64,000 bases of DNA from a virus, in the IMG/VR virus record IMGVR_UViG_3300032516_000004, positions 1 to 64,000 of that record, one strand, 5' to 3'. Position numbers and translations under genes: made by a program. Below, piece after piece: positions 16,304 to 26,492 of this stretch. The notes below the pieces were generated by a model. It saw only the letters and a list, made by a program, of their open reading frames with translations, did no database searches and was not told where the DNA came from. Positions within the stretch are counted from its first letter, which is position 1. Each line of letters opens with the position of its first letter.

Positions 16304-16391
16304 TGGTGCCTGGGGAGGGGCACGATCCCTCAATCCCTTACGGGCAACAGTTTTTAAGACTGTTCAGTATACCAAATTCCTGCACCCAGGC
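16304..16391 (-). tRNA. trnL: tRNA-Leu(UAA), CCA encoded
   Basis: Acceptor GCCTGGG/CCCAGGC-A-CCA; anticodon stem ACAGT/ACTGT with loop CTTAAAA; long variable arm CCCGTAAGGG; T stem GAGGG/CCCTC. Confidence 0.9.
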
Positions 16392-20970: not shown

Positions 20971-21708
20971 GGTACTCCTTGGCCTTTCTGACCCCGAAGG
21001 GTCGGGTTTAGGGACTCTGAACCCACGACATAAGGTCAGCTGAGGTTCAAGGGGTGAACCTCAGTCTTCCTTATACTACCACTATATCTACCGTGTACCG
21101 CTACCGTGACCACTGATCTTGGGTCACACGGTCTGCCCACCACAATAAGAGAAACTGCAATTTTCGTGCCTGCTCGTCCCTTGCTATACGTTGTCATGTT
21201 TTACCTCACATGTGTTGCAGTGTATGGTATTGTCGAAGTTCGCGATAAACCGCTAACCGTAAGCCAGTCAATCAGTTTTTCACACACATTATATGATCTG
21301 ATATACCCCACCATTGAACGTTTGTACAGTATCGTGCAGGACTTGTCCCGTGGGTCCCCCGCCAGCCATCCCGTGGGTCCCGTGAAGGTGGCTAAGTAGT
21401 TAATTCGAACTGACTTTGGTGGGGTCCCCCGACCCCCCCGAGGTATTAAGCAAGAAATTACAGGCCCATGGCATTGAAGCTGGCCCCACATCCCCTCATA
21501 TTGACGAAGCAATCCGTCGTCTAGATAACCAAGAACTCACACGTAATACCGTCGAAACATTACCATAGGAGTCTATCATGTCCAAAGAAGATCCCACAAC
21601 CTCCTAAGATTCAAGACCTAGATCTCTGGATTACCGACTTCGAAGACGCTGAATTTAGTATTGTGGACCCATATGATATTGGGGTCCCGTTTCCCGGTAA
21701 TCCCTTGT

Positions 21709-21734
21709 CCCACCACGCGTAAACGCGTGGTGGG
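21709..21734. terminator. perfect 12-bp GC-rich hairpin closing the pentamer array (terminator or processing/protective stem)
   Basis: CCCACCACGCGT-AA-ACGCGTGGTGGG; no U-tract on either strand. Confidence 0.65.
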
Positions 21735-21735
21735 G

Positions 21736-21957
21736 GATATGGGCATCGCACGATCTGTTGAATGACCTGAATGGATGTGCGTCGATGAGGTATGTCGTCT
21801 GGGGAGTTTCGACCGGGCCGGATAAGATGGGATTGTCGCGGGGATAGACCCATGTGGTCGGGTCGAGGTCGAGGCGACTCGACTTGTCAAACCGGGTCGT
21901 TTCGACTGGGAAGGATACGTCATATAGGCGCGGCTCATAATGGTTCGGCTTGTCATA
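21736..21957 (-). ncRNA. putative guide-RNA array of 5-nt periodic units (RHC triplet + variable NN)
   Basis: Starts 9 nt after the RAMP stop; 36/40 triplets read in register end in C; TATGAC/TATGAC/TTTGAC recur exactly 33 nt apart; strand inferred from the upstream promoter. Confidence 0.7.
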
Positions 21958-21965
21958 TGATTTGT

Positions 21966-22634
21966 CTACCGGACCTTTACGCATTCAACGGCCCGACTCT
22001 TCCCATATCCTTGGCTTCGGTCTGACCCTATCCCAAGATCCCGGAGATACAGGATTGCAAATCCAAGAGCTTCTTCGGTGACGGTTCCTCGACACAGCAT
22101 TTTAACCGTAAATGTAACCTCCACGTCATGTAGGATGTCAAATTTTTTCAACGAGTTTCGGGGTCCACTGGCCGTCATGACATGAATGGCCCGTTCTTCC
22201 TGACCCACCTCTTTGATCGGCTCTCCGTTACGGGTAAAGTAACATCGATCCTCGACCACGAATACCTGGTCCGCGACTTTGCTCTTCAATGCCTTGATTC
22301 CCACCATATCCTTGATAATGTTAGCCGCTTCCTTGAGCCCACTCTTGATACACCGGCCTTCAATATAAAGCCCCCGATCATCGCGTTTGAAAATTGTCCA
22401 ACTTCGGGTTTCTTTGTCGTCGGCCACTTCCGGGAGTTCCTGGACCGTGGCTTCCACAATCTTGGCCTTGTCTTCAGCACTTTTAGCCTTGCACGTTGCA
22501 TTGATCCATCCTTCGATCATCTGTGGATTGGCTGGGGTCCCGCCCACCGCATTTACCAAATGTAGGGTTACTCGATACTCGCTAAATACTTGGTCGTCAA
22601 ATTTCTGTTTCATAGCTTCAAAATCAAATGTCAT
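21966..22634 (-). CDS. solitary Cas7/RAMP-superfamily protein (Csm3/Csf2-like RRM)
   Basis: 222 aa; beta1 YRVTLHL + GGTP; GLYIEGRCIKSGLKEAA (cf. IPGSSLKGxLR); thumb with GPRNSL; C-terminal Gly-rich loop LGIGSDRSQGYGK; AGGAGG RBS. Confidence 0.85.
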   Translation of the reverse strand: MTFDFEAMKQKFDDQVFSEYRVTLHLVNAVGGTPANPQMIEGWINATCKAKSAEDKAKIVEATVQELPEVADDKETRSWTIFKRDDRGLYIEGRCIKSGLKEAANIIKDMVGIKALKSKVADQVFVVEDRCYFTRNGEPIKEVGQEERAIHVMTASGPRNSLKKFDILHDVEVTFTVKMLCRGTVTEEALGFAILYLRDLGIGSDRSQGYGKSRAVECVKVR

Positions 22635-22657
22635 ATTACCTCCTAATAATCAGTAGA

Positions 22658-22675
22658 TTGCAGGCGTCGTGCCAA
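22658..22675 (-). promoter_or_regulatory. sigma54 promoter of the RAMP gene
   Basis: Minus strand TTGGCACGACGCCTGCAA, GC (-12) about 26 nt upstream of the ATG. Confidence 0.75.
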
Positions 22676-22744: not shown

Positions 22745-23056
22745 ATGTTTGTTCTGTTATTAAATAATATGCAATCACCCAATATTGAAATCGTGGAACC
22801 CGTAGCAAAGGCTGAAACTCAAGAAGCACTAATGTCATTTATTGAAAGAGAGCGCGTAGCTGCCTATCGAGAACCTGGGGAGAATTATTATGGGACCACG
22901 ATGTGGGGTAAAAACTTTAGAAAAGGTGGTGTCCTGGAATGGTACAATCCCCCGTTTTCTGACCAATATATTGTGGACTTGGGTACTGAGGATGATTGGG
23001 CTACCAGTGCCAGGGCACAATATAGGCAGCAAATAAATTCAATTCCTAGTGTCTAA
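22745..23056 (+). CDS. hypothetical protein
   Basis: GGAG RBS before ATG 22745; F..GG.LEWYNPP motif. Confidence 0.55.
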   Translation: MFVLLLNNMQSPNIEIVEPVAKAETQEALMSFIERERVAAYREPGENYYGTTMWGKNFRKGGVLEWYNPPFSDQYIVDLGTEDDWATSARAQYRQQINSIPSV

Positions 23057-23432
23057 ATTGGAAAGTAGGAAGCATCGTATCATGCCAATTATCAAACCCG
23101 AGGACTGGCAGAAATGGATAGATAACAATTCAGATCCATATGGAAGATGCTGCGTGCTGGTGGCTGAGGAAGTCATGCGAATGCTCGATGAGCCTGAGCA
23201 CGCGAAGCCACCAATCACGGATGACACACCCTACAAGCTCATCGATGCCGCAGATGACAACATTCGAGCTGGTGGTATTACGGGTTTCATGGCTGGGTGT
23301 GTGGCGGAGATGGTGAGCCATTGCCATTCTCGGGGTGAAGAGTTTCGCAGGGCATGGAACGCATATTACGGGATCAAGAGTGATCGGTGGGGTATCGTTA
23401 ACCCCGCGATTTTGACGACCGGCCACCAATAA
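23049..23432 (+). CDS. conserved phage protein (GITGFMAG.....V...HSRGEEFRR.WN)
   Basis: Recurrent phage motif. Confidence 0.7.
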   Translation: MSKLESRKHRIMPIIKPEDWQKWIDNNSDPYGRCCVLVAEEVMRMLDEPEHAKPPITDDTPYKLIDAADDNIRAGGITGFMAGCVAEMVSHCHSRGEEFRRAWNAYYGIKSDRWGIVNPAILTTGHQ

Positions 23433-26125: not shown

Positions 26126-26492
26126 GGGCCTGAACGGTTTCGACGATGATACGGAGGTGAATGGGAGCGTGCCGGGGATGTCTTGCAGCCTCGTTAAAAA
26201 GCAAGGCAGCGTTTAATTGCCAACTCTGATGTTGAGCAACCTGTTACGCGGCAGCTCGCTGCCGCGTAAGAGGACCCGAGAAGAGACACCTACTATTGAC
26301 TCGGGAAAAGAAGTAGGCTAGGTTATTGTTGGTCCTGGCGCGGCAATAATCGAAACAAACAGACAGGTAATCGTCTGGATCAGCTTGCTCAGTGGGCTGA
26401 GGATTGATGAAAAACGAGTACACGAGATACGCACGTAGTGCCCACCACCAAAAGATTATCGGACCTGGGTTCAATTCCCAGCAGGTCCACCA
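26126..26492 (+). ncRNA. ssrA: tmRNA, tag ANSDVEQPVTRQLAAA
   Basis: 5' GGGCCTGAACGGTTTCGAC; 3' GGGTTCAATTCCC...CAGGTCC-A-CCA; resume codon GCC 26219 after TAATT; tag ORF 26219-26269 ends LAAA-stop; extended -10 TGGTATTAT upstream. Confidence 0.95.

What the first reader, a model, noticed from the sequence alone, without database searches (positions are those of the whole stretch)
21736..21957. Register structure of the pentamer array: ~33-nt units delimited by TATGAC/TTTGAC
SEEN (minus strand, triplets upper-case): tat GAC aa GCC ga ACC at TAT ga GCC gc GCC ta | tat GAC gt ATC ct TCC ca GTC ga AAC ga CCC gg | ttt GAC aa GTC ga GTC gc CTC ga cctc | GAC cc GAC ca CAT gg GTC ta TCC cc gcgaca | ATC cc ATC tt ATC cg GCC cg GTC ga AAC tc CCC agac | GAC at ACC tc ATC ga CGC ac ATC ca TTC ag GTC at tc | AAC ag ATC gt GCG at GCC ca TAT cc. 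Across 40 triplets, position 3 is C in 36, position 2 is G in only 1, and position 1 is a purine in 30. I chose the phases by eye, so these counts are somewhat inflated. The first three boundary motifs lie exactly 33 nt apart (21957, 21924, 21891). INFERENCE: about seven guide units of 4-7 pentamers, separated by phase-shift linkers that could be processing sites or ends of RNP filaments; the most regular units are nearest the gene.
Basis: partly seen in the sequence, partly recalled or inferred. Interest (0 to 1): 0.85.

Follow-up and report, generated by a model that had tools for sequence, protein, structure and literature searches.

The report
Phage VIPR guide array, GAC-punctuated
The five-base-periodic stretch after a small Cas7-like gene in this large phage is a guide-RNA array of the recently described VIPR system, written in an unusual dialect: short guides of about 33 bases, each opened by GAC and joined head to tail.

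Summary
Lag-5 identity at 21736-21957 (minus) is 0.36 against 0.26 in shuffles (2/5000). GAC starts lie 33, 33, 18, 33 and 38 nt apart, all 3 mod 5.

The adjacent 222-aa gene folds as a single-RRM Cas7-like RAMP. It belongs to a phage family with at least 115 IMG/VR relatives. By a strict threshold, 61 of 82 loci carry clearer arrays of the same grammar: GAC-NN-(xCC-NN)k-xCC, most often 33 nt.

This is the VIPR system (bioRxiv 2026), and other agents of this scan reached the same identification on other DNA. Between phages with 96% identical vipr genes, the fixed C is 91% conserved and the NN about 50%.

Relatives' guides obey the published one-base-skip code:
- One unit matches 14/14 the G-loop codons of vipr genes.
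- Another matches 18/18 the terminase Walker A codons in at least 120 viral contigs, against 1 for a permuted control.
- Both matches span exactly one GAC-delimited unit.

Three things stay open: the transcribed strand (sense favoured), how the units are processed, and the targets of this window's own 12-base guides. I class it as a new variant of a known kind, because the guides are tail-less and short and the scaffold on the gene strand is C-based.

The parts
21966..22634 (-). vipr gene: 222-aa single-RRM Cas7-like RAMP with the motifs GG.P, IEGR..K..LKEAAN and the G-loop GIGSDRSQGYG
   Evidence: ORF. Pfam RAMPs, weak, E 0.16. AF2 pLDDT 92.6. Foldseek best hits are type VII Cas7 and Csm3, E 3e-8. 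66 homologs, none with a known function. Invariant residues. Profile link to a canonical Vipr, E 5e-4.
22646..22675 (-). Promoter-like site just 5' of vipr. It reads as sigma-70-like TTGGCA-18-GATTAT. The same bases also read as sigma-54-like TGGCAC-N5-CTGCA at 22674-22659.
   Evidence: Consensus scan and sequence. A match to a consensus only; not evidence of function.
21922..21954 (-). Unit 1, 33 nt: GAC aa GCC ga ACC at TAT ga GCC gc GCC ta TAT. Guide NN = AA GA AT GA GC TA.
21889..21921 (-). Unit 2, 33 nt: GAC gt ATC ct TCC ca GTC ga AAC ga CCC gg TTT. Guide NN = GT CT CA GA GA GG.
21871..21888 (-). Unit 3, 18 nt: GAC aa GTC ga GTC gc CTC. Only 3 NN.
21736..21870 (-). Later, less regular units. 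GAC starts at 21870, 21837 and 21799. In-phase runs of 5-7 pentamers are broken by 1-6-nt slips. The best-formed run is GAC at ACC tc ATC ga CGC ac ATC ca TTC ag GTC (21796-21764).
21709..21735 (-). Closing hairpin: an 11-bp G+C-rich stem with loop TTTA and no U-run, directly after the last pentamer
   Evidence: Sequence and fold. The same gene-array-hairpin order occurs in Microcystis phage Mae-JY09.

Best explanation
The stretch is the guide-RNA (vrRNA) array of a VIPR system, and the 222-aa gene just upstream is its Vipr protein.

Proposed mechanism. Steps 1-3 are inferred from the published SUSP1 and P. fulva work. Steps 4 and 5 are supported here in silico for this protein family.
1. The array is transcribed with vipr as its 3' extension and ends at the hairpin.
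2. One Vipr protomer binds each pentamer. It sequesters the fixed triplet, which here is N-H-C with an almost invariant C and in GC-rich relatives is xCC. The two variable bases stay exposed.
3. The filament binds double-stranded DNA and silences it.
4. The exposed NN pair with the target under a one-base-skip rule (NN x NN x ...), with the skipped base usually at the codon wobble position.
5. Each GAC-opened unit of 5n+3 nt (7 triplets framing 6 NN, which is 33 nt) is one guide. Because a unit ends on a triplet and the next begins with the GAC triplet, no NN lies between them. This produces the +3 phase shift and probably marks the filament end or a cleavage point.

The guides are short (12 informative bases in units 1 and 2) and have no individual 3' tail, unlike the 9-16-repeat tailed vrRNAs first described.
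For: Protein:
- Confident Cas7-like fold with RRM, thumb hairpin, helical insert and G-loop.
- Profile match to a canonical Vipr over 129 columns, E 5e-4. That protein in turn hits SUSP1 Vipr at 5e-9.

Array grammar:
- Significant 5-nt phasing in the window.
- The same strand-linked arrays occur next to homologs in 61 of 82 loci.
- Family logo GAC-NN-(bCC-NN)k-bCC, with NN information content about 0.
- 64% of phase breaks are +3 with GAC, and the modal unit has 7 triplets.

Evolution:
- L045 against L051 has 95% identity in the flanks. Inside the array, triplet position 3 is 91% identical, position 2 is 74%, position 1 is 54%, and the NN are 47% and 55%.
- Whole units are replaced between these phages.

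Code:
- Gapped matches of 7-NN windows are enriched only at skip 1: 22 against 8.4 in controls. Skip 0 gives 3 against 5.2, skip 2 gives 1 against 5.0, and skip 3 gives 11 against 7.4. Most of the excess is one guide that hits a conserved motif.
- That guide, an L054 unit, matches 14/14 the SQGFGRYE codons of 9 of 82 vipr genes, including its own.
- An L055 unit matches 18/18 the terminase large-subunit Walker A codons in at least 120 IMG/VR contigs. The skipped base is at the wobble position and all four bases occur there. A block-permuted control gives 1 hit.
- Both matches begin after GAC and end at the last NN of the unit.

Literature: the VIPR mechanism and variant repeat motifs are described in bioRxiv 10.64898/2026.04.26.720920.720927 and 10.64898/2026.10.21.760802.
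Against: - No target was found for the window's own guides. With 12 specified bases they are too short for the collection scan. There is no self-target and nothing above control in the local loci.
- The fixed triplet on the gene strand is not GGY. There is no per-guide tail and no vap gene was recognised next to this vipr.
- No RNA data could be obtained, so transcription, strand and processing are inferred.
- Units after 21870 are irregular and may be decaying.
- Direct similarity to SUSP1 Vipr is weak: hhalign E 0.012, C-terminus only.
- Apart from the striking cases, family-wide target enrichment is modest. Full-length perfect hits at skip 1 number 14, against 5-12 in controls.
Confidence: 0.78

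Rival explanations
1. Same VIPR system, but the RNA is the opposite (G-rich, plus) strand. Guides would then read (G-K-N NN)n ending in GTC. This corresponds to the 'NNNGG/NNNNG' alternative repeats of the discovery paper, transcribed antisense to vipr.
For: - Read this way, the order of conservation (invariant G, then G/T, then a free base, then NN) mirrors canonical G1-G2-Y3-N4-N5 exactly.
- All published consensus forms are G-based.
- A few loci carry the arrays inverted relative to vipr: L057 and L058 upstream, and L067.
- The target search cannot tell the strands apart, because it is symmetric.
Against: - The arrays are C-rich on the vipr strand in about 73 of 80 blocks, whereas canonical arrays are co-oriented with vipr.
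- They start 2-55 nt after the stop codon of a co-directional gene, or run up to the vipr ribosome-binding site. That leaves no room for an antisense promoter or terminator.
- Strong terminators or hairpins follow the array in the C orientation in L054, L077, Mae-JY09 and the window.
- In L060 the C-type array sits between plus-strand elements.
- The Asp that reads G1 in SUSP1 aligns with Ala/Ser in this family.
Confidence: 0.2
2. The array makes Vipr-binding RNA that is not a targeting guide set. It could be a decoy or sponge, or a decaying remnant whose NN no longer specify anything.
For: - No target was found for the window's guides.
- The distal units are irregular.
- Decoy vrRNAs are reported for SUSP1 satellites.
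Against: - The vipr gene keeps all invariant residues.
- Units 1 and 2 are perfectly formed.
- Relatives' units have exact natural targets.
- The lack of a hit is expected, since 12-base guides could not be scanned against collections.
Confidence: 0.08
3. The stretch is protein-coding (the 112-aa ORF 21618-21956 or the 109-aa ORF 21655-21984, minus strand), or it is a chance or compositional pattern.
For: Open frames exist, and gene callers sometimes call ORFs over such arrays.
Against: - A period of 5 is not a multiple of 3, and +3 and irregular shifts break any frame.
- No Pfam match.
- The called ORFs differ in strand and frame between relatives.
- The phasing beats all shuffles and recurs in dozens of unrelated phages.
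Confidence: 0.01

Closest known systems
Type II VIPR of Escherichia phage SUSP1 and the Pseudomonas fulva prophage (Vipr + Vap1 + vrRNAs). bioRxiv 10.64898/2026.04.26.720920 and 10.64898/2026.04.26.720927.
   Same: - A small phage-borne Cas7-like protein.
- Flanking non-coding arrays of pentamers with a fixed triplet and a variable NN.
- NN read with a one-base skip that falls on codon wobble positions.
- Targets in rival phages, including vipr genes.
- No cas genes found among the neighbours I scanned.
   Different: - Here the fixed triplet on the gene strand is N-H-C / xCC, not GGY.
- Guides have 3-9 NN (mode 6), not 9-16.
- There is no roughly 40-nt pseudoknot tail and no promoter per guide. 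Units abut, with GAC punctuation and a +3 phase shift.
- No vap gene was recognised in this window.
- Protein similarity is only detectable at profile or fold level.
Non-canonical VIPR arrays (GAC/NN, CAC/NN, WGT/NN, TGH/NN) and the alternative NNNGG/YNNNG/NNNNG repeats. bioRxiv 10.64898/2026.10.21.760802 and the Methods of the discovery paper.
   Same: Period-5 arrays with a fixed core other than GGY, lying next to Vipr-like folds. GAC is a legitimate fixed triplet.
   Different: Those arrays are described as repeating about 10 times. Here GAC is used only as the first triplet of each short unit, and the other triplets are xCC or NHC.
'Staggered vrRNA arrays' of the VIPR discovery paper (fig. 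S18; only the legend could be read)
   Same: Tail-less vrRNAs packed end to end, where the end of one marks the start of the next.
   Different: The legend speaks of a 1-nt overlap. Here the dominant junction is triplet|GAC with a +3 shift, and +1 slips are a minority (155 of 1027). I could not see the figure, so it may or may not be the same thing.
Class 1 CRISPR backbone filaments (Cas7, Csm3, Cmr4, type VII Cas7)
   Same: Best structural matches. The protein polymerises on the RNA with a fixed register, and a thumb displaces bases periodically.
   Different: - 5-nt register rather than 6-nt.
- The scaffold bases are sequence-specific and lie inside the guide.
- No repeat-spacer array, and no Cas5, Cas6, Cas10 or Cas1.

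Membership tests
VIPR system | Vipr protein: a small single-RRM RAMP with G-loop, thumb and helical bundle | tested here: met
   - AF2 pLDDT 92.6, with strand-helix order matching an RRM, a long beta-hairpin and a helical insert.
- Foldseek hits to Cas7 and Csm3, E 3e-8.
- hhalign to the canonical Vipr of L060, E 5e-4 over 129 columns.
- hhalign to SUSP1 Vipr, E 0.012.
VIPR system | Non-coding tandem pentamers beside vipr, with a fixed triplet and a hypervariable dinucleotide | tested here: met
   - Window.
- Family logo.
- L045 against L051: fixed C 91% identical, NN about 50%, flanks 95%.
- Triplet position 1 is as variable as the NN.
VIPR system | GGY consensus of the fixed triplet on the vrRNA strand | tested here: not met
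   - On the vipr strand the triplet is N-H-C in the window and xCC or xAC in relatives.
- It would read GGN/GTN only if the RNA were antisense.
- The literature allows 'a related consensus' and lists non-GGY cores.
VIPR system | Each vrRNA has 9-16 repeats followed by a conserved structured 3' tail | tested here: not met
   - Units have 4-9 triplets, with a mode of 7.
- There is no sequence between units, and only one hairpin after the whole array.
- No Rfam ribozyme in 17 loci.
VIPR system | Targets matched by NN with a one-base skip, with the skip on the codon wobble position | tested here: met
   - Met for family members: L054 to the vipr G-loop codons (14/14), and L055 to the terminase Walker A codons (18/18, at least 120 contigs against 1 for the control).
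- L057 matches its neighbour gene 16/18. In all three cases NN occupy codon positions 1-2.
- For the window's own 6-NN guides it could not be tested at collection scale, and local searches found nothing.
VIPR system | Encoded by a virus, with no cas operon or CRISPR array | tested here: met
   - The window lies in a 177,941-bp IMG/VR virus record.
- The neighbours I scanned have no Cas families.
- A whole-genome cas or CRISPR scan was not run.
VIPR system | Adjacent vap accessory gene | tested here: inconclusive
   - No conserved neighbour is shared with the window.
- A gene of about 185 aa with no Pfam match lies upstream of vipr in 31 of 82 loci and may be this clade's vap.
VIPR system | Vipr-vrRNA filament that binds dsDNA and silences transcription | not testable with these tools
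   Needs RNA-seq, pull-down, EMSA or reporter assays.
CRISPR-Cas class 1 (type III/VII Cas7) | Repeat-spacer CRISPR array plus partner Cas proteins (Cas5, Cas6, Cas10 or Cas14) | tested here: not met
   Only the Cas7-like fold is shared. The array has a 5-nt period with no 25-40-nt repeats, and no Cas families were found among the neighbours.

The most novel reading that the evidence does not exclude
A widespread phage clade of Vipr proteins reads a cytosine-based scaffold (x-H-C, sense strand) instead of GGY. It stores many tail-less guides of about 33 nt head to tail, each opened by GAC, so that a 3-nt phase shift alone punctuates the array.

These short guides are aimed at the most conserved motif codons of rival phages, such as the terminase Walker A and the Vipr G-loop. 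The latter includes the phage's own vipr, which would amount to autoregulation.

This grammar and targeting strategy are not described in the text of the 2026 preprints that I could read.
Probability: 0.45. Interest if true: 0.7.

Novelty: new variant of a known kind. Interest (0 to 1): 0.55.

Why it matters
VIPR is a months-old class of RNA-guided DNA recognition. This clade would widen its design space:
- A different scaffold base.
- Guides of only 12-18 informative bases.
- Multiplexed arrays that need no tail, ribozyme or per-guide promoter.
- Natural guides that hit invariant motif codons while ignoring wobble bases, which works as a broad-spectrum anti-phage strategy.

It also shows that one phage can carry two VIPR dialects. 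Finally, it points to a cultured model, Microcystis phage Mae-JY09, for testing processing and strand.

Tried and rejected
- **Coding reading of the 112-aa and 109-aa ORFs.** Rejected: the period is 5, there is no Pfam match, and the frames are inconsistent between relatives.
- **A TRAP-like or Rho-utilisation C-rich RNA.** Considered from memory, and dropped once the Cas7-like partner and the VIPR literature were found.
- **DNA similarity.** No DNA match in isolated phages. The single-protein locus scan found nothing. The profile scan found 115 relatives.
- **A sigma-70-like promoter on the plus strand before the second array at 168.4 kb**. I first took it as support for C-strand transcription. 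I rejected this when the adjacent 210-aa gene proved to be a canonical Vipr on the minus strand, which makes that array an ordinary GGY/NN array.
- **Terminator counting to fix the strand.** Indecisive: 3 in the C orientation against 5 weak ones (3 of them redundant) in the G orientation.
- **GC3-based neighbour orientation.** Too noisy to use.
- **Rfam scan of 17 loci for ribozymes or known RNAs.** Nothing found.
- **First permissive chain parse.** It ran through whole GC-rich loci and was discarded. A regex target search timed out.
- **Strict full-length guide test.** No overall enrichment: 14 hits against 5-12 in controls, because 6-NN guides dominate the chance hits and the parse missed the L054 unit.
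- **Window guides against their own genome and against 82 loci.** No hit above control.
- **Supplementary data of the discovery paper.** Not held.

Full report
**1. Observation**

On the minus strand, 21957-21736 lies 11 nt after the stop codon of a 222-aa ORF (21966-22634). It ends at an 11-bp G+C-rich hairpin at 21735-21709.

By my recount of its 40 triplets, its counts are correct: C at triplet position 3 in 36, one G at position 2, and 30 purines at position 1.

The statistics support a real signal:
- Lag-5 identity is 0.364 against 0.264 +/- 0.030 in dinucleotide shuffles, reached by 2 of 5000.
- When the maximum over lags 2-40 is taken, 41 of 1000 shuffles reach it.
- It is the strongest lag-5 signal in the window.
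- A chain score that rewards phased C positions is 28.0 against 10.9 +/- 3.1, reached by 0 of 1000 shuffles.

GAC triplets at 21954, 21921, 21888, 21870, 21837 and 21799 are spaced 33, 33, 18, 33 and 38 nt apart, all 3 mod 5. Units 1-3 are clean. The later ones slip phase.

**2. The partner gene**

- The ORF has a weak Pfam RAMPs hit, E 0.16.
- With a 57-sequence alignment it folds at pLDDT 92.6.
- Its best structural matches are type VII Cas7 and Csm3/Cmr4, E 3e-8.
- The model has one RRM, a long beta-hairpin, a helical insert and a C-terminal glycine loop.
- It has 66 homologs of unknown function in the protein collection and at least 115 relatives in IMG/VR.

**3. The array is a family trait**

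By a strict lag-5 threshold, 61 of 82 homolog loci carry arrays next to the gene, usually far cleaner than in this window.

Aligned on GAC, the logo is GAC-NN-(bCC-NN)k-bCC:
- The last C is at about 96%.
- The middle C is at about 80%.
- The first triplet base is weakly constrained (not A).
- The NN carry essentially no information.

Across 94 non-redundant array regions and 1121 units, 64% of all phase breaks are the +3 step onto GAC. The modal unit has 7 triplets, which is 33 nt.

An AT-richer clade uses xAC. The window, in a 40% G+C genome, uses N-H-C. In the window's own clade the boundary is extended to WTGAC (L003 and L008).

A unit is therefore n triplets framing n-1 dinucleotides. Because one unit ends on a triplet and the next starts with the GAC triplet, the phase jumps by 3.

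**4. Identification**

A note from this scan pointed me to the VIPR preprints, which I then read.
- VIPR consists of a roughly 20-kDa Cas7-like Vipr protein that polymerises on vrRNAs made of GGY/NN pentamers.
- The protein hides the GGY and pairs the NN with dsDNA under a one-base skip, which silences rival mobile elements.
- Seven types are described, along with variant repeats (NNNGG, YNNNG, NNNNG), 'staggered' arrays and ribozyme-interspersed arrays.
- A later preprint lists non-GGY cores such as GAC/NN, each repeating about 10 times.

I fetched SUSP1 (KT454805.2) to check the canonical layout. Its vipr (195 aa) and vap1 are flanked by GGY/NN arrays on the same strand as the genes.

The window's family aligns to SUSP1 Vipr only over the C-terminal G-loop region, E 0.012. 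It aligns over 129 columns, E 5e-4, to a canonical Vipr found in locus L060. That protein in turn matches SUSP1 Vipr at 5e-9.

**5. Tests of the guide idea**

*Variability.* L045 and L051 have 96% identical vipr genes and 95% identical flanks. Inside the array, identity is:
- 91% at triplet position 3
- 74% at position 2
- 54% at position 1
- 47% and 55% at the two NN positions

Whole units are swapped or deleted between these phages.

*Code.* I decoded the NN of all units and searched the pooled loci with the arrays masked. Seven-NN windows gave these counts against block-permuted controls:

| Skip | Hits | Control |
|---|---|---|
| 0 | 3 | 5.2 |
| 1 | 22 | 8.4 |
| 2 | 1 | 5.0 |
| 3 | 11 | 7.4 |

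Nine-NN windows gave 1 against 0.05, at skip 1 only.

The excess comes from a few striking guides:
- **L054.** The first unit after the L054 vipr stop codon matches 14/14 the codons for SQGFGRYE, the invariant G-loop, in 9 of 82 vipr genes including its own. NN occupy codon positions 1-2.
- **L055.** A unit with 9 NN matches 18/18 a site in L065.
  - All 80 fetched hits encode (A/S)VRGPHGLGK(S/T), the Walker A motif of the terminase large subunit (phrog_2). All four bases occur at the skipped wobble positions.
  - The same blocks in permuted order hit one contig.
- **L057.** A unit matches 16/18 a gene beside its own array.

In L054 and L055 the match covers exactly the GAC-delimited unit and does not extend into the neighbouring unit. 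The matches lie on either strand relative to the target gene, as expected for DNA targeting rather than mRNA targeting.

A stricter full-length test over all GAC-started units showed no overall enrichment: 14 against 5-12. The family-wide statistics are therefore modest, and the case rests on these specific matches and their control.

**6. The window's own guides**

- Unit 1: AA.GA.AT.GA.GC.TA
- Unit 2: GT.CT.CA.GA.GA.GG
- The best distal unit: AT.TC.GA.AC.CA.AG

None has a self-target in the 178-kb genome, and none has a hit above control in the fetched loci. With 12 specified bases they fall below the 14-base minimum of the collection scan. Their targets remain unknown.

**7. Strand**

Evidence for the C-rich sense strand:
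- About 73 of 80 array blocks are C-rich on the vipr strand. Two of the 7 exceptions are the canonical GGC/NN arrays of L060, which belong to the canonical vipr next door.
- Arrays begin 2-55 nt after a co-directional stop codon, or run into the vipr ribosome-binding site.
- Strong hairpins or terminators follow the array in that orientation in L054, L077, Mae-JY09 and the window.
- The Asp that reads G1 in SUSP1 aligns with Ala/Ser in this family.

Evidence for the G-rich strand:
- Read in reverse, the order of conservation copies G1-G2-Y3-N-N.
- All published consensus forms are G-based.
- Some arrays are inverted relative to vipr: L057, L058 and L067.

I put the sense strand at about 3:1.

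**8. Verdict**

This is a VIPR locus made of vipr, a guide array and a closing hairpin. Its promoter-like site reads as sigma-70-like and also as sigma-54-like TGGCAC-N5-CTGCA.

The kind of system is known from 2026 preprints, and other agents of this scan have already identified VIPR on other DNA.

Three things are not described in the text I could read:
- The tail-less, GAC-punctuated, 5n+3 packing of short guides.
- The C-type scaffold on the gene strand.
- The aiming of such guides at invariant motif codons.

Fig. S18 of the discovery paper ('staggered arrays') may overlap with the first of these, but I could not see it.

Noticed in passing
Same genome, outside the window: G000:C1:168,419-169,697 (L085:4420-5698): A second, canonical VIPR system lies in the same phage. 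A 210-aa Vipr on the minus strand (169,065-169,697; BLASTP to SUSP1 Vipr 9e-9) is followed by a 163-aa gene. After that come about 32 unbroken GGY/NN pentamers, which read as ACC/NN on the plus strand. This is the strongest lag-5 signal in the genome. The phage therefore carries two VIPR dialects. L060 has the two vipr types in tandem.
   Followed up: partly
window 23049-23432 (+): A 127-aa ORF about 400 nt from the vipr promoter, transcribed divergently, matches Pfam Tad4 (type I Thoeris inhibitor), E 8.6e-11. It also matches phrog_9822. An anti-defence gene therefore sits next to the VIPR locus.
   Followed up: no
window 26126-26492 (+) and 16304-16391 (-): The phage encodes a tmRNA (Rfam 144.7 bits, tag peptide ANSDVEQPVTRQLAAA) and a tRNA-Leu(taa). 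The 16-26 kb stretch around the VIPR locus has 49-53% G+C, against about 40% elsewhere in the window.
   Followed up: no
L054:4601-4620 and L054:4654-4691: The first guide after the L054 vipr gene matches 14/14 its own vipr G-loop codons, only 53 nt upstream of the guide. This could be autoregulation, or a roadblock to read-through into the array. The discovery paper reports no self-targeting at 80% NN match or above for the clades it searched.
   Followed up: partly
L087 (Microcystis phage Mae-JY09, PP395641.1: 37,713-38,900): A cultured cyanophage carries a vipr homolog (248 aa, annotated as hypothetical). A GAC/xCC array starts 2 nt after its stop codon and a closing hairpin follows, all at the right end of the genome. 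It is a tractable model for this clade.
   Followed up: partly
31 of 82 homolog loci, for example L012:1685-2224, L015:3414-3962, L020:3361-3954: A conserved gene of about 185 aa with no Pfam match lies upstream of vipr on the same strand, with the array often between the two. It is a candidate accessory (vap) gene of this clade and is absent from the window.
   Followed up: partly
L008:5066-5430: A strong sigma-70-like promoter (TTGACA-17-TATCTT) is followed by about 340 nt of apparently structured, non-coding sequence that leads into a C-type array. There is no Rfam match.
   Followed up: no
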